From the NCBI GenBank assembly GCA_964016885.1, contig OZ024741.1, positions 265,298,001 through 265,362,000 on the forward strand: DNA of 64,000 bases, read 5' to 3'. The translations under genes were made by a program, and so were the position numbers. Within the stretch, counting starts at the first letter, position 1; each line of letters begins with the position of its first letter. This document shows positions 9,385-64,000 of this stretch, in pieces. This stretch comes from Eledone cirrhosa. Its lineage: Eukaryota. The notes beneath the pieces were generated by a model, which saw nothing but the letters and a program-made list of their open reading frames with translations, did no database searches and had not been told where the DNA came from.

Positions 9385-12300
9385 CATCTATGACTGACGC
9401 ATCTGGAAACATCATCGGGTGTTTCGGGTCTTTCAACATCATACACCCTTCTCCAGGTGACCCAGCTGGGGCTGATCAGACCCCAGCTTGTGTCCAGATG
9501 GCCAGCTAGCTACCATGACTCCATGGCTCTCCTCTTTTGATCCACAGCCATCTTGAGTCTCTCTCTACCGCATCGGTGGTACTGCGGATGGCCTTCTTCC
9601 TTCTCACTCCCTCGATGCCCAAACTGTTGAAGGCTCTGGTCAGGGAACGGGCTGCGAAACCCCTGCATCCAATCTCCACTGGGAGACACCTCGCTCTCCA
9701 ACCAGCCTGCTGACAGTCACTGACCAGAACCGCGTACTTGGAGAGCTTTCTCTCAAAGGCTTCTTCCAGGCGATCTTCCCATGGGACAGTCAACTCCAGC
9801 AGCACTACTTGCTTGGTGGACTCAGACATGAGAACAATGTCTGGTCGCAGGGTAGTGACCGCAATGTGGCCAGGGAACTTCAGCTGACGCTCAAGATCCA
9901 CCAATAGCTGCCAGTCTCTTGCAGATGTTAGGATGCCCGCCGATGTTTTCCTGGAAGGGGTTGGCTACTCCCCAGCTCTGACAAAGGCGATGGTTTTCTT
10001 GGAGGGTCGGAACCGCTTCGCCCACACAATTCCTGTGCTGATGGCTTCAGCGATGGTCTTAAGGACTTGGTCATGCCTCCAGTGGTACCGTCCTTCTCCA
10101 AATGCCCCTGTGCAGCAGCTGAGGATGTGTTCCAGGGTTCCTCGCTTGGAGCATAACGCACATGCTGGTGTCTCTGCTATGCCCCATGTGTGCAGGTTTG
10201 AGGGCTTGGAAGCACATCGTACACTGCCTGGATGAGGAATTTAATGCGGTGAGGTTCGGCTTTCCACAGCTCAACCCAGGTCACTTTCCTCTCAACCGCA
10301 TTCACCCATCTTGTCCAATCTACCAGTTGCTTCATTTCTACTGCCTTGCAAGTTCTCATTTCCTCCACTGCAACTCTCACCTCCTCCTGAACAAGGCGGC
10401 GCCCTTCCTTCTCGCTGGTGTTCATTTGGGGTGTCGGAAAGGAGCCTAGCCCAGCTCTTGTGTAACCATTCCCACAAGTCTCCTTTGGTGCAGCCTTGCC
10501 TCTGCCTCTTGAATTGCCTCCTCTGCCCTCCACTTCCTGCCAGTCCTCACTTGGATCCCTGCTTTAGCCACCTTCGGATCACAAGAGTCCCTGTACTGGA
10601 CCACTTCTCTGGCTCTTGCCACCTTGAACTCCTCCTCCAATGATTTGAAGGGTAATTGCAGTTTCGTGTTGTTACCGTAGAGTGCGATGCTGCTCAGGCT
10701 CCTTGGCAATCCAAGCCATCTCCGGAGGTGGCTGCTGACCCTCCTCTCTAAGGTCACCACTGTTGAGATGGGGACTGCATAGACAAGGAGGGGCCACAGG
10801 ATCCTGGGAAGAATGTCGTATTGGTAGACCCAGGCTTTGAACTTCCCAGGTAGGCCTGACTTGTCCACGGATTTCAGCTAGTCATCCAACTCAGTGCAGG
10901 CTGACTGGATAGATGTAGTATCTCTCAATGAGCTGTCGAAAACCTTGCCCAAGCTCTTGACTTGCTTCTCTGTGATTGTTCGAATGACTGTTCCTCAGAT
11001 GTTAAACCGGAACTTGTCCTCCACCTTCCCTTTCCTCAGCACCATAGATCTTGATTTGGTTGGTTTGAAACGCATCCGGGCCCACTCCATCACCTTTTAG
11101 AGTCCCTGCAGAATCCACTGGCAGCCTGGGCTGATTCTGTCATTACTGTGAGGTCATCCATGAACGCCCTAATGAGTGGTTGCTTTTGTCCGGATTTCGA
11201 TAGGGGCCCTCTGCACTCTGGCTCAGCAGACTTGGTAATCATGTTCATGGCTAGGGAGAATAGTGTAACAGAGATAGTGCACCCCGTGATGATGCTGTTT
11301 CCATCTTGTGCCAGCGTGATGTTATTGCTTCCGAAGAGACCCTCATCCTGAAATTGGTGTAGTAATCAGCGATGAGGTCTCTACACCTGCTTGGGACATG
11401 ATTTTTTTGTCAACGTGAGCTGTACCAGCTTGTGTGGAATGGAGTCGAATGCATTTGCCAGGTCAAGCCACAGCACAGACAGGTTACCCCTGTTCTCTCT
11501 TGCCTCTCGAATCAGCTGTGTTACCACACCGGTATGCTCCAGACAGCCTGGTATTCCCGAAATGCCACCCTTCTGTACAGATGTATCGATGTAGGTGTTC
11601 TGACCCAGGTAGGCACACAGCCGTTTGGAAACAATGCTGAAGAAGATCTTTTCCTCCACACACAGCAGGGAGATGATGCGGAATTGGTCTATCTGGGTAG
11701 AGTTTTCCTCCTTCGGGACCCACACACCCTCAGCTACTCTTCATTGTTCTGGGAACCTCCTTCTTCTCCAGAAGACTCGCAGGATTTTCCACAGACGCTG
11801 CAGAAGTTTGGGACAGTTCTTAAACACTTTGTATGAAGTTCCACTTGGTCCTGGAGCAGAGCTTGCCCTTGTTCTGCGGACAACCTCCCCGACTTCCTTT
11901 AGCTGCAGCTCTGTCATGTCAAACTGCACCTCTGGTTCAGGGGGGGGGGTCTATGGGGATGTTACACTCTCCCAACTCCTGCTCTCTTGCTGTACGTCTT
12001 CCTCAGATGCCGGATTATGTCTTCCTGCGAGGAGGCAAGTTACCACTGCGCTTCTGCCCCAACAAATCCTTAGTGAACGTGAAGAGGTTGGAGATAAAGG
12101 CAGCACGCTTGCGCGCCCTCTCACGGCGCCGCCTTCGGTGCTCGGTGCCGTTCAACCCGGCGGAGAACCTTGATCTTTTCCCGTAGGCTGCACATTAGCT
12201 GGTCCAGGCCAATGCGTTCCTCATCTCCGGCCTTTTTGTATTGGGACTTCAGTGCCTTCATATCCTGCCTGATGTTAAGGATCCTAACAGCTCTTTGATT

Positions 12301-12797
12301 CTTTGAGTAAGTTGTTCCGGAGCTTTTCTTCTCCTCCTCGCCGAATCGTCCCGCTGGGAAACTCACAATGATTGTTGTCATAGCTTGTAGCCTCCTGTCA
12401 GCCCCCCCCCCCCTTTACCGTTGCCTCCAGAATTTGGTCGACATCATCATCGAACTGCTTCCACAGTGAGGTCAGGCTAGCTGCTGGCCATTTGATCCGC
12501 CTCCTGTCAGATTTGATGTTCAGGGGATTAGTTTCCACCACTTGGACGTTCCGGGCACTATGGGGTGACTCCGGGCCTTGCTCCTCCTGCGTCTCACCAG
12601 CTTGGACACCTGTGCGATGTGATATTTCTGCTCCCAACGGGCACTTCATCCTCGCTCGGTGTATCTTTAGGCCGTGGATGTTCTTGCAGACTTTACCGCA
12701 TGTACACTTCTTACACATAGTCCGTTGTCCATTGCTTGGGTCTGTTAACGATATGTCCGTCCGACTGGGGTGCTCATTCTCCCCCCTCCCCCCGCCT
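9385..12797 (-). mobile_element. HERO-clade non-LTR retrotransposon (RT plus restriction-like endonuclease), nearly full ORF with frameshifts and stops
   Basis: N-terminal finger CTCGKVCKNIHGLKIHRARMKC; RT SAPGPSG, QFRIISLL, QKGGISGIPGCLEH, LWLDLANAFDSIPH, GCTIS, RAFMDDLTV; DKSGLPGKFKAW; LEHILSCC; WRHDQVL; RLE LRPDIV...ELTVPWE...ERKLSKY; stop at 9506. Confidence 0.92.
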
Positions 12798-12873
12798 GGG
12801 TGTCCCAAAAAATGTACACACTTTGATTAGAATGCTGCGGAAGTACGTATACATTTTGGGGGGATACCCTGTA
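12798..12873. mobile_element. Tiny Tc1/mariner-type MITE (about 76 bp)
   Basis: gggtgtcccaaaaaatgtacacactt ... aagtacgtatacattttgggggataccctg-TA: imperfect TIRs with CAGGGT terminus and TA on the right; left end cut by the HERO junction. Confidence 0.65.
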
Positions 12874-22712: not shown

Positions 22713-23592
22713 TAAAATACAATATGTTGAAAAGGTAACGCACTAGAGAGAGATACAGTGCGCTATCAATAAAACAGGGAAAAACCACCAGTGTATGGAA
22801 TCTATAACCTATGAAAGGCAGAGTATAGACACGATAATTAAAAATATAAATTAAAGCGTAAATAAATACCTCTATAACTATATAACACACGTACAAATCC
22901 AAAGTGATCTGTTTCGCCAGTAGGTTGTTGACAGAAATGAAATAACCCAGGTTCATCAGCTTGTGTAAAGCTATACATTTCAGACAACACTAAGAGAATT
23001 TTTAAAGCGACCGTCCATCTACACGTGGGAGAGAGAAGTCACAGCGTGTTTAAGGGCAGTGAACCAGTGGCCTCTGAGGGACGAACTGCGAGAAAGGGCA
23101 GCCTAAAACCACTCAGAGAAGTGTGCTCAACCAAACAGAGAGAGATAGGAAAGACTGTTATAAGGAGCGAAATATCATGATACATTAAAGGAGCCATAAA
23201 CACGCTGTGACTTCTCTCTCCCACGTGTAGATGGACGGTCGCTTTAAAAATTCTCTTAGTGTTGTCTGAAATGTATAGCCTTACACACGCCGATGAACCT
23301 GGGTTATTTCATTTCTATCGAAACAGATCACTTTGGATTTGTACGTGTGTTATATAGTTATAGAGGTATTTATTTACGCTTTAATTTATATTTTTAATTA
23401 TCGTGTCTATACTCTGCCTTTCACAGGTTATAGATTCCATACACTGGTGGTTTTTCCCTGTTTTATTGATAGCGCACTGTATCTCTCTCTAGTGCGTTAC
23501 CTTTTCAACATATTGTATTTTAAAGAGCTCAGGATTTCCTCTCCTTTGAGCACATTATTTACAGGGAACGGCGAGAGTCTATGGCTCCGTTA

Positions 23593-23597
<5 letters not shown>
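22713..23597. repeat. Large inverted repeat (arms 22713-23052 and 23197-23522) between (TA)n tracts; Penelope-like pLTR remnant with hammerhead-like core
   Basis: Arms are near-identical reverse complements (also seen in twin ORFs 22588- and 23333+); minus left arm has CTGATGA...GGCGAAAC. Confidence 0.85.
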
Positions 23598-23646
<49 letters not shown>

Positions 23647-23852
23647 TTATATGTGTGTATATATATGTATGTATGTATATATATATATATGTATGTATAT
23701 GTATATATATATATAGTCTTTGATTTTCCCGCTTTTACTTCGGTCCAGTTTACATACGGGTCAATTTTACGACCTTTCAGACCTTTATTAGCTGGCAGGA
23801 GGTTGTATATTTTGTCGTTCCTGGGACGTTTAGCCCTAGGAAGGGAAAATGC

Positions 23853-23931
23853 TTCTCTGATGAGCTTTGGTTTTCCATCATAAATCCATCGGATTTATGA
23901 GGTTTTACAAAGCGAAACTGATCAGTAAGGG
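23853..23931 (+). ncRNA. Type-I hammerhead ribozyme motif (canonical core)
   Basis: ttct-CTGATGA-GCTTTG...CAAAGC-GAA-ACTGATCAGT-A-aggg; G10.1-C11.1 pair, 10-nt palindromic stem III, GUA triplet, nested 10-bp hairpin in stem II. Confidence 0.8.
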
Positions 23932-24012
23932 CCACTAGAAGAGGTAAATATTTATATTATATTTTTTAATGTATTTTGAAAAATTGATTGAATTTTACTT
24001 GTTCTGCTTATC

Positions 24013-24091
<79 letters not shown>

Positions 24092-54438: not shown

Positions 54439-55497
54439 TGATGTCAGTGGGTGTGGTCTTTCACTGGATGGTGACTGGGATATCAGTGGGTGTGGTCTTT
54501 CACTGGATGGTGACTGGGATGTCAGTGGGTGTGGTCTTTCACTGGATGGTGACTGGGATGTCAGTGGGTGTGGTCTTTCACTGGATGGTGACTGGGATGT
54601 CAGTGGGTGTGGTCTTTCACTGGATGGTGACTGGGATGTCTGGGTGTGGTCTTTCACTGGATGGTGACTGGGATGTCAGTGGGTGTGGTCTTTCACTGGA
54701 TGGTGACTGGGATGTCAGTGGGTGTGGTCTTTCACTGGATGGTGACTGGGATGTCAGTGGGTGTGGTCTTTCACTGGATGGTGACTGGGATGTCAGTGAG
54801 TGTAGCTTTTCACTGGATGGTGACTGGGATGTCAGTGGGTGTGGTCTTTCACTGGATGGTGACTGGGATGTCTGGGTGTGGTCTTTCACTGGATGGTGAC
54901 TGGGATGTCAGTGGGTGTGGTCTTTCACTGGATGGTGACTGGGATGTCAGTGGGTGTGGTCTTTCACTGGATGGTGACTGGGATGTCAGTGGGTGTGGTC
55001 TTTCACTGGATGGTGACTGGGATGTCTGGGTGTGGTCTTTCACTGGATGGTGACTGGGATGTCAGTGGGTGTGGTCTTTCACTGGATGGTGACTGGGATA
55101 TCAGTGGGTGTGGTAATTCACTGGATGGTGACTGGGATGTCAGTGGGTGTGGTCTTTCACTGGATGGTGACTGGGATGTCAGTGGGTGTGGTCTTTCACT
55201 GGATGGTGACTGGGATGTCAGTGGGTGTGGTCTTGCACTGGATGGTGACTGGGATGTCTGGGTGTGGTCTTTCACTGGATGGTGACTGGGATGTCAGTGG
55301 GTGTGGTCTTTCACTGGATGGTGACTGGGATGTCAGTGGGTGTGGTCTTTCACTGGATGGTGACTGGGATGTCAGTGGGTGTGGTCTTTCACTGGATGGT
55401 GACTGGGATGTCAGTGAGTGTAGCTTTTCACTGGATGGTGACTGGGATGTCAGTGGGTGTGGTCTTTCACTGGATGGTGACTGGGATGTCAGTGGTT
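54439..55497 (+). repeat. 39-bp minisatellite (about 27 units) with 37-bp variants
   Basis: Unit gatgtcagtgggtgtggtctttcactggatggtgactgg. Confidence 0.95.
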
Positions 55498-55574: not shown

Positions 55575-58500
55575 TTAACTCTTTTGATACAAAACCACTT
55601 GACACTGTCAGCAAACCACTTGACACTGCCACCAAACCACTTGACACTGCCACCAAACCACCTGACACTGCCACCAAACAACCTGACACTGCCACCAAAC
55701 CACCTGACACTGCCACCAAACCACTTGACACTGCCACCAAACCACCTGACACTGCCACCAAACCACGTGACACTGCGCCAAACCACCTGACACTGCCACC
55801 AAACCACCTGACACTGCGACCAAACCACCTGACACTGCCACCAAACCACTTGACACTGCCACCAAAGTGCCTGACACTGCCACCAAACCACTTGACACTG
55901 CCACCAAACCACTTGACACTGCCACCAAACCACTTGACACTGCCACCAAAGTGCCTGACACTGCCACCAAACCACTTGACACTGCCACCAAACCACTTGA
56001 CACTGCCACAAAACCACCTGACACTGCCACGAAACCACTTGACACTGCCACCAAACCACCTGACACTGCCAACAAACCACCTGACACTGCCACCAAACCA
56101 CTTGACACTGCCACCAAACCACCTGACATTGCCACCAAACCATCTGACACTGCCACCAAACCACTTGACACTGCCACCAAACCACCTGACACTGCACCAA
56201 ACCACTTGACACTGCCGCCAAACCACCTGACACTGCCGCCAAACCACCTGACACTGCCGCCAAACCTCCTGACACTGTGCCAAACCACCTAGCACTGCCA
56301 CCAAACCACCTGACACTGGGACCATACTACTTGAAACTGCCACCAGACCACCTGACACTGCCACCAAACCACCTGACACTGCCACAAAACCACCTGACAC
56401 TGCCACAAAACTACTTGACACTGCCTCCAAACCACCTGACCCTGCCACCAAACCACCTGACACTGCCACCAAACCGCCTGACACTGCCACCAAACCACTT
56501 GACACTGCCACCAAACCACCTGACACTGCCACCAAACCACCTGACACCGCCACCAAACCACCTGACACTGCTACCAAACCACCTGACACTGCCACCAAAC
56601 CACCTGACACTGCCACCAAACTGCCACCAAACCACCTGGCACTGCCACCAAACCACCTGACACTGCTGCCAAACCACCTGACTCTGCCACCAAACCAGAT
56701 GACACTGCCACCAAACCACCTGACACTGCCACCAAACCACTTGACACTCCCTCCAAACCACCTGACACTGCCACCAAACCACCTGACACTGCCACCAAAC
56801 TGCCTGACACTGCCACCAAACCACTTGACACTGACACTGCCACCAAACCACCTGACACTATCACCAAACCACTTGACACTGCCACCAAACCACCTGACAC
56901 TACCACCAAACCACATGACACTGCCACCAAACCACCTGACACTGCCACCAAACCACTTGACACTGCCTCCAAACCACCTGCCACTGCCACTAAACCACTT
57001 GACACTGCCACCAAACCACTTGACACTGGCACCAAACCACCTGACACTATCACCAAACCACTTGACACTGCCACCAAACCACCTGACACTGCCACCAAAC
57101 CACCTGACACTGCCACAAAACCACCTGACACTGCCACAAAACTACTTGACACTGCCTCCAAACCACCTGACCCTGCCACCAAACCACCTGACACTGCCAC
57201 CAAACCACCTGACACCGCCACCAAACCACCTGACACTGCTACCAAACCACCTGACACTGCCACCAAACCACCTGACACTGCCACCAAACTGCCACCAAAC
57301 CACCTGACACTGCTGCCAAACCACCTGACTCTGCCACCAAACCAGATGACACTGCCACCAAACCACCTGACACTGCCACAAAACCACTTGACACTCCCTC
57401 CAAACCACCTGACACTGCCACCAAACCACCTGACACTGCCACCAAACCACCTGACACTGCCACCAAACTGCCTGACACTGCCACCAAACCACTTGACACT
57501 GACACTGCCACCAAACCACCTGACACTATCACCAAACCACTTGACACTGCCACCAAACCACCTGACACTACCACCAAACCACATGACACTGCCACCAAAC
57601 CACCTGACACTGCCACCAAACCACCTGACACCGCCACCAAACCACCTGACACTGCTACCAAACCACCTGACACTGCCACCAAACCACCTGACACTGCCAC
57701 CAAACCACCTGACACTGCTGCCAAACCACCTGACTCTGCCACCAAACCAGATGACACTGCCACCAAACCACCTGACACTGCCACAAAACCACTTGACACT
57801 CCCTCCAAACCACCTGACACTGCCACCAAACCACCTGACACTGCCACCAAACCACCTGACACTGCCACCAAACTGCCTGACACTGCCACCAAACCACTTG
57901 ACACTGACACTGCCACCAAACCACCTGACACTATCACCAAACCACTTGACACTGCCACCAAACCACCTGACACTACCACCAAACCACATGACACTGCCAC
58001 CAAACCACCTGACACTGCCACCAAACCACTTGACACTGCCTCCAAACCACCTGCCACTGCCACTAAACCACTTGACACTGCCACCAAACCACTTGACACT
58101 GGCACCAAACCACCTGACACTATCACCAAACCACTTGACACTGCCACCAAACCACCTGACACTGCCACCAAACCACCTGACACTGCCACCAAACCACTTG
58201 ACACTGCGCCAAACCACTTGACACTGCCACCAAACCACCTGACACTGCCACCAAACCACCTGACCCTGCCACAAAACCACCTGACACTGCCACAAAACTA
58301 CTTGACACTGCCTCCAAACCACCTGACCCTGCCACCAAACCACCTGACACTGCCACCAAACCGCCTGACACTGCCACCAAACCACTTGACACTGCCACCA
58401 AACCACCTGACACTGCCACCAAACCACCTGACACCGCCACCAAACCACCTGACACTGCTACCAAACCACCTGACACTGCCACCAAACCACCTGACACTGC

Positions 58501-61500
58501 CACCAAACTGCCACCAAACCACCTGACACTGCTGCCAAACCACCTGACTCTGCCACCAAACCAGATGACACTGCCACCAAACCACCTGACACTGCCACAA
58601 AACCACTTGACACTCCCTCCAAACCACCTGACACTGCCACCAAACCACCTGACACTGCCACCAAACCACCTGACACTGCCACCAAACCACTTGACCCTGC
58701 CACCAAACCACCTGACACTGCCACAAAATTACTTGACACTGCCACCAAACCACCTGACACTGCCACCAAACCACCTGACACTGCCACCAAACCACCTGAC
58801 ACTGCCACCAAACTGCCTGACACTGCCACCAAACCACCTGACACTGCCACAAAACTACTTGACACTGCCACCAAACCACTTGACACTGCCTCCAAACCAC
58901 CTGACACTGCCACCAAACCACCTGACACTGCCACCAAACCACTTGACACTGCCACCAAAACACCTGACACTACCACCAAACCACATGACACTGCCACCAA
59001 ACCACCTGACACTGCCACCAAACCACTTGACACTGCCTCCAAACCACCTGCCACTGCCACTAAACCACTTGACACTGCCACCAAACCACTTGACACTGAC
59101 ACTGCCACCAAACCACCTGACACTATCACCAAACCACTTGACACTGCCACCAAACCACCTGACACTGCCACCAAACCACTTGACACTGACACTACCACCA
59201 AACCACCTGACACTGCCACCAAACCACTTGACACTGCGCCAAACCACTTGACACTGCCACCAAACCACCTGACACTGCCACCAAACCACCTGACACTGCC
59301 GCCAAACCACCTGACACTGCCACCAAACCACCTGACACTGCCGCCAAACCACATGACACTGCCGCCAAACCTCCTGACACTGCCGCCAAACCACTTGACA
59401 CTGCCACCAAACCACCTGACACTGCCACCAAACCACCTGACACTGCGCCAAACCACCTGACACTGCCACCAAACCAACTGACACTACCACCAAACCACCT
59501 GACACTGCCACCAAACCACCTGACACTGCCACCAAACCACCTGACACTGCCACCAAACCACTTGACACTGCCACCAAACCACTTGACACTGCCACCAAAC
59601 GTCCTGACACTGCCACCAAACCACTTGACACTGCCACCAAACCACCTGACACTGCCACCAAACCTCCTGACACTGCCACCAAACCACCTGACACTGCCAC
59701 CAAACCACATGACACTGCCACCAAACCACTTGACACTGCCACCAAACCACCTGACACTGCCACCAAACCACTTCACACTGCCATCAAACCACTTGACACT
59801 GCCACCAAACTGCCTGACACTGCCACCAAACCACTTGACACTGCCACCAAACCACTTGACACTGCCACCAAACCACCTGACACTGCCACCAAACCACCTG
59901 ACACTGCCACCAAACCACCTGACACTGCCACCAAACTGCCTGACACTGCCACCAAACCACCTGACACTGCCACAAAACTACTTGACACTGCCACCAAACC
60001 ACTTGACACTGCCTCCAAACCACCTGACACTGCCACCAAACCACCTGACACTGCCACTAAACCACTTGACACTGCCACCAAAACACCTGACACTACCACC
60101 AAACCACATGACACTGCCACCAAACCACCTGACACTGCCACCAAACCACTTGACACTGCCTCCAAACCACCTGCCACTGCCACTAAACCACTTGACACTG
60201 CCACCAAACCACTTGACACTGACACTGCCACCAAACCACCTGACACTATCACCAAACCACTTGACACTGCCACCAAACCACCTGACACTGCCACCAAACC
60301 ACTTGACACTGACACTACCACCAAACCACCTGACACTGCCACCAAACCACTTGACACTGCGCCAAACCACTTGACACTGCCACCAAACCACCTGACACTG
60401 CCACCAAACCACCTGACACTGCCGCCAAACCACCTGACACTGCCGCCAAACCACCTGACACTGCCGCCAAACCACATGACACTGCCGCCAAACCTCCTGA
60501 CACTGCCGCCAAACCACTTGACACTGCCACCAAACCAGCTGACACTGCCACCAAACCACCTGACACTGCGCCAAACCACCTGACACTGCCACCAAACCAA
60601 CTGACACTACCACCAAACCACCTGACACTGCCACCAAACCACCTGACACTGCCACCAAACCACTTGACACTGCCACCAAACCACTTGACACTGCCACCAA
60701 ACCTCCTGACACTGCCACCAAACCACTTGACACTGCCACCAAACCACCTGACACTGCCACCAAACCTCCTGACACTGCCACCAAACCACCTGACACTGCC
60801 ACCAAACCACTTGACACTGCCACCAAACCACCTGACACTACCACCAAACCACTTGACACTGCCACCAAACCACCTGACACTGCCACCAAACCACCTGACA
60901 CTGGGACCAAACTACTTGAAATTGCCACCAGACCACCTGACACTGCCACCAAACCACCTGACACTGCCACCAAACCACCTGACACTGCCACAAAATTACT
61001 TGACACTGCCACCAAACCACCTGACACTGCCACCAAACCACCTGACACTGCCACCAAACCACCTGACACTGCCACCAAACCACCTGACACTGCCACCAAA
61101 CCGCCTGACACTGCCACCAAACCACCTGACACTGCCACAAAACTACTTGACACTGCCGCCAAACCACCTGACACTGCTACCAAACCACATGACACTGCCA
61201 CCAAACCACCTGACACTACCACCAAACCACCTGACACTGCGCCAAACCACCTGACACTGCCACCAAACCAACTGACACTACCACTAAACCACATGACACG
61301 GCCACCAAACCACCTGACACTGCCACTAAACCACTTGACACTGCCACCAAACCACCTGACACTATCACCAAACCACTTGACACTGCCTCCAAACCACCTG
61401 ACACTGCCACCAAACCACCTGACACTGCGCCAAACCACCTGACACTGCCACCAAACCAACTGACACTACCACTAAACCACCTGATACTGCCACCAAACCA

Positions 61501-64000
61501 ACTGACACTACCACTAAACCACATGACACGGCCACCAAACCACCTGACACTGCCACTAAACCACTTGACACTGCCACCAAACCACTTGACACTGCCACCA
61601 AACCACTTGACACTGCCACCAAACCTCCTGACACTGCCACCAAACCACTTGACACTGCCACCAAACCACCTGACACTGCCACCAAACCTCCTGACACTGC
61701 CACCAAACCACCTGACACTGCCACCAAACCATCTGACACTGCCACCAAACCACTTGACACTGCCACCAAACCACCTGACACTGCCACCAAACCACCTGAC
61801 ACTGCCACCAAACCACCTAACACTGGGACCAAACTACTTGAAACTGCCACCAAACCACCTGACACTGCCACCAAACCACCTGACACTGCCACCAAACCAC
61901 CTGACACTGCCACCAAACCACATGACACTGCCACCAAACCACCTGACACTGCAACCAAACCACTTGACACTGCCTCCAAACCACCTGACACTGCCACCAA
62001 ACCACCTGACACTGCCACCTGACACTGCCACCAAACCACTTGACCCTGCCACCAAACCACCTGACACTGCCACAAAATTACTTGACACTGCCACCAAACC
62101 ACTTGACACCGCCACCAAACCTCCTGACACTGCCACCAAACCACCTGACACTGCCACCAAACCACCTGACACTGCCACCAAACCGCCTGACACTGCCACC
62201 AAACCGCCTGACACTGCCACCAAACTGCCTGACACTGCCACCAAACCACTTGACACTGCCACCAAACCACCTGACACTGCCACCAAACCACCTGGCACTG
62301 CCACCAAACCACTTGACCCTGCCACCAAACCACCTGACACTGCCACAAAATTACTTGACACTGCCACCAAACCACTTGACACCGCCACCAAACCACCTGA
62401 CACTGCCACCAAACCACCTGACACTGCCACCAAACCACCTGACACTGCCACCAAACTGCCTGACACTGCCACCAAACCACCTGACACTGCCACAAAACTA
62501 CTTGACACTGCCACCAAACCACCTGACACTGCCGCCAAACCACCTGACACTGCCACCAAACCACTTGACACTGGCACCAAACCACCTGACACTATCACCA
62601 AACCACTTGACACTGCCACCAAACCACCTGACACTGCCACCAAACCACCTGACACTGCCACCAAACCACTTGACACTGCGCCAAACCACTTGACACTGCC
62701 ACCAAACCACCTGACACTGCCGCCAAACCACCTGACACTGCCGCCAAATCACCTGACACTGCCGCCAAACCACCTGACACTGCCGCCAAACCCCCTGACA
62801 CTGCCACCAAACCACCTGACACTGCGCCAAACCACCTGACACTGCCACCAAACCAACTGACACTACCACTAAACCACATGACACGGCCACCAAACCACCT
62901 GACACTGCCACTAAACCACTTGACACTGCCACCAAACTGCCTGACACTGCCACCAAACCACCTGACACTATCACCAAACCACTTGACACTGCTACCAAAC
63001 CATCTGACACTACCACCAAACCACTTGACACTGCCACCAAACCACCTGACACTACCACCAAACCACCTGACACTGCCACCAAACCACCTGACACTGCCAC
63101 CAAACCACTTGACACTGCCACCAAACCTCCTGACACTGCCAACAAACCACCTGACACTGCCACCAAACCACTTGACACTGCTACCAAACCACCTGACACT
63201 ACCACCAAACCACTTGACACTGCCACCAAACCACCTGACACTGCCACCAAACCACCTGACACTTCCACCAAACCACCTGACACTGGGACCAAACTACTTG
63301 AAACTGCCACCAGACCACCTGACACTGCCACCAAACCACCTGACACTGCCACCAAACCACCTGACACTGCCACCAAACCACTTGACCCTGCCACCAAACC
63401 ACCTGACACTGCCACAAAATTACTTGACACTGCCACCAAACCACCTGACACTGCCACCAAACCACCTGACACTGCCACCAAACCACCTGACACTGCCACC
63501 AAACTGCCTGACACTGCCACCAAACCACCTGACACTGCCACAAAACTACTTGACACTGCCACCAAACCACTTGACACTGCCTCCAAACCACCTGACACTG
63601 CCACCAAACCACCTGACACTGCCACCAAACCACTTGACACTGCCACCAAAACACCTGACACTACCACCAAACCACATGACACTGCCACCAAACCACCTGA
63701 CACTGCCACCAAACCACTTGACACTGCCTCCAAACCACCTGCCACTGCCACTAAACCACTTGACACTGCCACCAAACCACTTGACACTGACACTGCCACC
63801 AAACCACCTGACACTATCACCAAACCACTTGACACTGCCACCAAACCACCTGACACTGCCACCAAACCACTTGACACTGACACTACCACCAAACCACCTG
63901 ACACTGCCACCAAACCACTTGACACTGCGCCAAACCACTTGACACTGCCACCAAACCACCTGACACTGCCACCAAACCACCTGACACTGCCGCCAAACCA
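55575..64000 (+). repeat. 21-bp minisatellite array (about 400 units, runs off the window end), starting at a MITE P1 terminus
   Basis: Unit ccacctgacactgccaccaaa with recurrent variants; begins ttaactcttttgatacaaaaccacttgacactgtc. Confidence 0.97.

What the first reader, a model, noticed from the sequence alone, without database searches (positions are those of the whole stretch)
23853..23931. Best hammerhead candidate: intact core, 10-nt palindromic stem III, branched-out stem II
Seen: CTGATGA 23857-23863; GCTTTG/CAAAGC (23864-23869/23908-23913); inner perfect hairpin tcataaatcc/ggatttatga (23878-23887/23891-23900); GAAA 23914-23917; ACTGATCAGT palindrome; predicted cleavage after A23927; weak stem I ttct/aggg with two G-U pairs. 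It lies in a 300-bp island, a retrozyme-like monomer size. Activity is inferred, not shown.
Basis: partly seen in the sequence, partly recalled or inferred. Interest (0 to 1): 0.75.

Follow-up and report, generated by a model that had tools for sequence, protein, structure and literature searches.

The report
Locked hammerhead retrozyme with Penelope footprint
This is one shortened copy of a 485-base non-coding repeat that sits at hundreds of places in this animal genome; it carries a conserved motif predicted to cut its own RNA, and its insertion ends match the footprint of Penelope-type jumping genes, which likely copied it from a small, probably circular RNA in which the cutting site is predicted to be held shut by a second conserved strand.

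Summary
The hammerhead motif is real and at the stated coordinates. The "300-bp island" is not a monomer. It is the 3'-most 302 nt of a 485-nt unit with 629 exact ribozyme-core matches and 470 exact 3' junctions into (AT)n genome-wide. Arrays end at one of two fixed sites, 90 and ~195 nt past the predicted cut. They have ragged 5' ends, and inverted insertions mostly pair one end of each type: the Penelope-like (PLE) tail, (TA)n-target and inversion footprint. In copies picked without the ribozyme, the core is 97.7% conserved against 76% elsewhere. A 9-nt strand ~197 nt upstream pairs across the cut site and is kept by compensatory changes in a 50%-identical sister family. It is predicted to switch the ribozyme off, as in viroids and plant retrozymes. 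Best reading: a non-LTR retrozyme copied by PLE target-primed reverse transcription, probably round a circle. Cleavage, expression and circles are unshown, and no autonomous parent was found. The scan already reported this two-armed architecture for other families in this genome; a sequence look-up did not find this family.

The parts
23716..24017 (+). 5'-truncated copy (unit positions 184-485) of a 485-nt non-coding tandem retroelement
   Evidence: 0 mismatches to the unit taken from L013; the 40 best-scored of 1961 candidates are full-length at 99.7-100%
23731..23739 (+). Anti-ribozyme 'lock' strand, predicted to pair across the cut site (23924-23932) in competition with stems I and III
   Evidence: Pair probability 0.98-0.99 in this copy; pair-preserving variation over 58 units; compensatory version at the same place in the sister family
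23851..23856 (+). Hammerhead stem I, 5' strand (bulged U)
23857..23863 (+). Catalytic core C3-A9
23864..23913 (+). Oversized stem II: 6 bp, U-rich 5x5 internal loop, 10-12 bp covarying hairpin
23914..23927 (+). G12-A15.1, palindromic stem III, and H17; predicted cut after 23927
23928..23932 (+). Hammerhead stem I, 3' strand
24005..24019 (+). Fixed 3' end A (inferred reverse-transcription start), 90 nt after the cut, with 2-4 nt microhomology to the (AT)n target
24018..24091 (.). (AT)n tract, 3' flank (inferred primer side of the target)
23596..23715 (.). Interrupted (TA)n tract, 5' flank

Best explanation
The motif is the conserved type I hammerhead of a young 485-nt non-coding tandem repeat (a non-LTR retrozyme) whose copies end at two fixed sites in (AT)n and were likely inserted by a Penelope-like reverse transcriptase/endonuclease, probably copying round a circular RNA whose cut site is predicted to be held shut. 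Steps: (1) inferred: tandem arrays are transcribed; (2) predicted: two ribozymes cut, most easily as a dimer through the 10-nt palindrome, releasing 485-nt units; (3) inferred from literature: host ligase closes the units; (4) predicted: in the circle a 9-nt strand pairs across the junction and blocks re-cutting; (5) shown as a footprint, inferred as a mechanism: a PLE enzyme nicks (TA)n and starts cDNA inside the RNA at site A, just 5' of a conserved tail hairpin, and often also from the other target strand at site B ~105 nt further on. This gives fixed 3' ends, ragged 5' ends, multi-unit arms and head-to-head inversions. The window holds a one-armed product that stopped after 302 nt.
For: 485-nt period and dispersed near-identical copies. 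629 and 904 ribozyme matches, 470 A-junctions, 980 tail-hairpin matches, reversed-pattern controls 0. In 58 loci picked only on the ribozyme, 73 of 76 arms end at A (54) or B (19), 71 of those 73 within 26 nt of (AT)n; 12 of 16 two-strand loci pair A with B. 37 of 92 A-arms exceed one unit, and 1 of 92 starts within 5 nt of the cut, so the template was not a cut linear monomer. 11 insertion-private alleles are shared by all units of one insertion, 6 of them across opposite arms. Core 97.7% against 76.1% in unbiased copies. Lock kept with compensatory changes in a 50%-identical sister family. In the anole PLE, two internal RT starts define the tail, the first about 85-92 nt after the ribozyme cut (PMC11167929, my arithmetic).
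Against: No cleavage, transcript or circle was observed. The catalytic fold is 7 kcal/mol above the MFE of the same 101 nt. Only 3 of 30 pairs show double changes, no more than the shuffle control (496 of 500 shuffles reach it), and G10.1-C11.1 is broken in 18 of 77 rows. The lock has P>=0.7 in only 6 of 12 representative circles. 117 private alleles occur in only some units of an insertion, one allele alternates between units in L059, and L150 has a 4-unit higher-order pattern. No autonomous PLE with matching sequence was found. The tail is ~105 nt, not 30-40. Only 1 of 9 Xenopus retrozyme dimers cleaved in vitro (10.64898/2026.07.22.740005).
Confidence: 0.65

Rival explanations
1. Same PLE-driven insertion, but the template is an uncleaved linear multimer transcribed from a homogeneous tandem array; circles are not the intermediate.
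For: In vitro the anole PLE used unprocessed RNA and did not need the ribozyme (PMC11167929). The alternating allele in L059 fits a template with two unit types. The lock would also keep multimers uncut.
Against: Units within an insertion, both arms included, share one haplotype and private alleles. The summed arms overlap in unit coordinates. Selection on the core needs a role for cutting. A dimeric circle also explains L059.
Confidence: 0.22
2. The ribozyme was functional in the family's ancestors but is dispensable or dead in this youngest subfamily, which spreads only through its PLE start signal.
For: Weak stem I with G-U pairs, a strong competing fold, and stem I/III probability near 0.
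Against: The core is intact in the young subfamily, which has the canonical G10.1-C11.1 pair that many older copies lack and a double change in stem III. Equilibrium folds ignore dimer and protein-assisted folding (PMC4209133, PMC11167929).
Confidence: 0.08
3. A satellite spread by DNA-level processes (recombination, conversion, eccDNA) with no RNA step.
For: The large array L150 shows 4-unit higher-order repeats; three C1 loci are segmental duplicates; conversion could homogenise inverted arms.
Against: Strand-polar fixed 3' ends with ragged 5' ends, A+B pairing, (AT)n targeting, and selection on RNA pairing.
Confidence: 0.05

Closest known systems
Metazoan non-LTR retrozymes (PMC7229834, passages and Discussion read; bioRxiv 10.64898/2026.07.22.740005, parts 1-3 of 5 read)
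   Same: Type I hammerhead in each unit of low-GC (35.7%) non-coding tandem repeats, dimers to large multimers, dispersed monomers; PLE mobilisation and tandem cDNA from circles are proposed there.
   Different: 485 nt, above the 150-450 range of PMC7229834 but inside the 51-972 range of the preprint. Stem II is 50 nt. A conserved strand blocks the ribozyme, whereas PMC7229834 predicts free ribozymes in most metazoan circles (some mussel circles excepted). The parts I read do not describe fixed internal 3' ends or two-armed insertions.
Penelope-like elements, e.g. Poseidon from Anolis (PMC11167929, parts 1-2 of 4 read; PMC8557442, passages read)
   Same: Two internal RT start sites with a tail between them, first start ~90 nt after the ribozyme cut, AT-rich/(TA)n targets, 5' truncation, inverted 5' copy.
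   Different: No ORF; tail ~105 nt rather than 30-40 nt; no autonomous parent identified.
PLE hammerheads with palindromic helix III acting as dimers (PMC4209133, passages read)
   Same: Palindromic helix III, short helix I, large helix II, no obvious loop 1-loop 2 contact.
   Different: Helix II is far longer (6 bp, internal loop, then a 10-12 bp hairpin); no extra base between A9 and G10.1 in the young subfamily.
Plant LTR retrozymes and hammerhead viroids (as described in the Discussion of PMC7229834)
   Same: Ribozyme blocked by a complementary strand in the predicted circle.
   Different: Those use type III ribozymes, and plant retrozymes use LTR/Gypsy machinery; here the block is a short 9-nt mimic of stem I.

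Membership tests
Type I hammerhead ribozyme | Conserved core CUGANGA / GAAA / UH | tested here: met
   (258/264 core positions; 19 of 24 old copies intact)
Type I hammerhead ribozyme | Three helices with helix I open | tested here: met
   91.9% of cells paired; double change in stem III; stem I and II variants across subfamilies. Few independent double changes.
Type I hammerhead ribozyme | Loop 1-loop 2 tertiary contact | not tested
   No canonical loop 2; the U-rich internal loop is a possible substitute (inference)
Type I hammerhead ribozyme | Self-cleavage after H17 | not testable with these tools
   Folding predicts the active fold is a minor state as a monomer
Non-LTR retrozyme | Tandem repeats with a type I ribozyme in every unit | tested here: met
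   485-nt period; arrays of 2 to at least 14 units
Non-LTR retrozyme | Non-coding, low GC, a few hundred nt | tested here: met
   GC 35.7%; longest Met-started frame 15 aa sense, 34 aa antisense on a tetramer
Non-LTR retrozyme | Expressed as linear and circular RNA | not testable with these tools
   Only contig runs of unknown kind were available
Non-LTR retrozyme | Long target-site duplications when present | tested here: inconclusive
   26 of 42 one-arm loci have (AT)n on both sides, which hides duplications
Non-autonomous PLE derivative | Tail: two alternative fixed 3' ends | tested here: met
   73 of 76 arms end at A or B; tail longer than published
Non-autonomous PLE derivative | (TA)n target, 5' truncation, inverted 5' copy | tested here: met
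Non-autonomous PLE derivative | Homology to the pseudo-LTR of an autonomous PLE | tested here: inconclusive
   None in 79 loci scanned for adjoining ORFs or in one young PLE family; other PLE families not surveyed in full

The most novel reading that the evidence does not exclude
An old, repeatedly re-amplified lineage of animal viroid-like circular RNAs with a two-state switch, in which a stem-I mimic locks the hammerhead in the circle. A PLE dimer recognises a conserved tail hairpin and runs two reverse transcriptases round one circle from both ends of a (TA)n break, so the genome keeps a record of a circRNA lineage diverged to 50% identity.
Probability: 0.35. Interest if true: 0.75.

Novelty: new variant of a known kind. 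Interest (0 to 1): 0.52.

Why it matters
How animal retrozymes get back into DNA, and why their circles do not cut themselves open, are both left open in the papers read (PMC7229834 Discussion; 2026 preprint). This family offers base-precise predicted start sites, a conserved candidate recognition hairpin, and a candidate RNA-only off switch supported by compensatory change. All are testable with 0.5-1 kb transcripts and the published PLE in vitro assay. Hammerheads of this shape are also missed by Rfam models.

Tried and rejected
Expression: no RNA holder listed. The five runs are contigs of unrecorded kind; laying them showed the family and its subfamilies, nothing on transcription. Cut linear monomer as template: rejected, 1 of 92 5' ends within 5 nt of the cut. 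A-to-I editing scars: none, A>G 26 against T>C 30, p=0.50. Lock as a ligation splint on the cut monomer: not supported, pair probabilities 0.02-0.18. L038 (two ribozymes 2.8 kb apart) as an autonomous element: it is a local duplication. Autonomous parent: none adjoining in 39+20+20 loci. A young PLE family with 758-aa open frames (150 scored of 21162 candidates) shares no DNA similarity with the unit. Rfam: no hammerhead hit. Literature searches for cephalopod hammerheads and for PLE twin priming listed no description of this element.

Full report
Observation. A type I descriptor finds this motif and one other (minus strand, 47829) in window 1-55500, against a mean of 0.01 hits in 100 simulated sequences. 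Rfam finds nothing, probably because 50 nt lie between the two halves of the core (inference).

The island is a fragment. The 300-nt query has 1961 candidates in the 3.0-Gb genome; all 40 scored are full-length at 99.7-100% on several contigs, many in tandem. The period is 485 nt, and window 23716-24017 equals unit positions 184-485 exactly. Exact counts, each with a reversed-pattern control of 0: ribozyme 20-mer 629; young-subfamily 21-mer 374; relaxed ribozyme pattern 904; 3' junction into (AT)n 470; tail hairpin 980. The unit is 35.7% GC with no Met-started frame over 34 aa.

Insertion anatomy. I grouped the first 100 listed of the 629 matches into 62 clusters and fetched 60; two were already held and are not in this tally. 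Two segmental duplicates were dropped, leaving 58. Of 76 arms, 54 end at site A (unit 485, 90 nt after the cut), 19 at site B (unit 97-114 of the next unit) and 3 elsewhere; 52 of 54 and 19 of 19 run into (AT)n. Of 16 two-strand loci, 12 are head-to-head with one A and one B end. L031 is probably a thirteenth by eye, and three do not fit. One-arm loci number 37 A and 5 B. A further 39 loci picked on the 3' junction show the same plan. Over both sets the 5' ends of 92 A-arms are scattered: 1 lies within 5 nt of the cut, 82 cross it (partly by selection) and 37 exceed one unit. The same two ends hold in subfamilies at 70-85% identity and in a sister family at 50% (235/467 aligned positions). There A lies 80-84 nt after the cut but still just 5' of the same hairpin base, so the start appears tied to the hairpin, not to the ribozyme (inference).

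This is the published PLE footprint. PMC8557442 (passages) describes 5' truncation, partial tandems, an inverted 5' copy, a 30-40 bp tail and (TA)n targets. PMC11167929 (parts 1-2 of 4) shows internal initiation at two sites that define the tail, extension of both target strands, a ribozyme that needs protein, and unprocessed RNA as the main substrate.

One template per insertion. Young arrays are homogeneous and carry their own haplotype. In 110 loci, with L038, L112, L150 and L008 left out of the tally, 11 alleles seen in one locus only are shared by all its units covering the site; 6 of these span opposite arms in 5 loci. Another 117 occur in only some units, 96 of them in old copies. This fits a single circle, but also a homogeneous source array or conversion between arms. 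L059 has one allele in units 2 and 4 of 4, and the large array L150 has a 4-unit higher-order pattern, so large arrays also grow at DNA level. There is no A>G excess.

Ribozyme. In 24 old units from 59 loci chosen without reference to the ribozyme, 11 core positions are 258/264 identical against 4821/6336 elsewhere (copies are related, so the p-value overstates). On 77 distinct rows (one row with an insertion dropped), 91.9% of cells pair, with U-A/C-G exchange in stem III (53/20) and G-C/U-A exchange in the hairpin (40/26). The number of doubly changed pairs (3 of 30) does not beat the shuffle, and G10.1-C11.1 is broken in 18 rows, mostly older ones. Stem I fits best with a bulged U. The palindrome gives -13.6 kcal/mol as a duplex and +1.5 as a hairpin, which favours the dimer form described in PMC4209133 (passages).

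Lock. The 485-nt circle folds far better than shuffles (-140.7 kcal/mol, z -6.1, 0 of 40), with stems I and III unformed. Instead, unit 199-207 (window 23731-39) pairs across the cut site. Over 58 units, 8 of the 9 pairs hold in 56-58 rows each, the pair opposite H17 varies freely, and one pair runs U-A 27 / U-G 11 / C-G 19; slid registers give 25-60%. A lock is found 188-203 nt before the cut in 44 of 71 distinct ribozyme contexts; misses include truncated and inverted copies and one-mismatch cases. In the sister family both stem I and the lock, at -200, are rewritten together. A match of that quality arises anywhere in a shuffled unit with P=0.12, so its position is what counts. Against: the lock is predicted at P>=0.7 in only 6 of 12 representative circles and is weak on the cut linear monomer. 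PMC7229834 (Discussion) predicts free ribozymes in most animal retrozyme circles and blocked ones in plant retrozymes and viroids, so this family looks like the latter.

Partner. PLE-type ORFs lie near many loci (weak Pfam GIY-YIG hits in 4 of 8 proteins), and one family has many intact 758-aa frames. None shares sequence with the unit or adjoins it. The mobiliser is inferred from the footprint only.

Comparison and novelty. The element meets the testable marks of a non-LTR retrozyme and works like a non-autonomous PLE. The 2026 preprint (parts 1-3 of 5) links retrozymes to PLEs by phylogeny, says the mechanism is unresolved, and saw cleavage in 1 of 9 dimers. Five searches listed no paper on this family; in the parts I read, none maps retrozyme insertion ends. 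After I had reached this reading, the scan's index showed the same two-armed plan reported for 310-, 422-, 467- and 518-601-nt families in this genome. It had nothing by sequence or nearby for this one, and no note held all my lock search words. Those notes call the host a cephalopod; I did not test that. Verdict: real, young, likely PLE-mobilised retrozyme; new variant by its oversized stem II, long tail and conserved lock; activity and circles unshown.

Noticed in passing
window 22713-23593: A different two-armed, head-to-head element with degenerate hammerheads (minus 22959, plus ~23291). Its right arm runs ~70 nt beyond the left arm's end before (TA)n; the copy studied here sits in its flank.
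   Followed up: partly
window 47829-47757, minus strand: Second intact type I hammerhead with palindromic stem III and long stem II; unrelated sequence.
   Followed up: no
window 22465 and 19947, minus strand: Two copies of a minimal PLE-type hammerhead with a 6-nt palindrome.
   Followed up: no
window 1168, minus strand: Hammerhead-like motif resembling the one upstream of the young 758-aa PLE ORF.
   Followed up: no
L128:1376-1924, L161:73-1118, L163, L204: Sister retrozyme family, 483-490-nt unit, 50% identical, with the same architecture and fold plan.
   Followed up: partly
L172-L195: Very young autonomous PLE family: 150 scored matches at 93-100% protein identity, many with intact 758-aa frames and a small hammerhead upstream.
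   Followed up: partly
L119:413-422, L111:1034: Some inversion junctions fold back exactly at short palindromes, including stem III.
   Followed up: no
window 55592-64000 and 54440-55495: Large 21-bp satellite (398 copies) next to a 39-bp array.
   Followed up: no
window 9500-12830, minus strand: Broken non-LTR retrotransposon ORF with RT-like and C-terminal endonuclease-like segments (label from recall, not searched).
   Followed up: no
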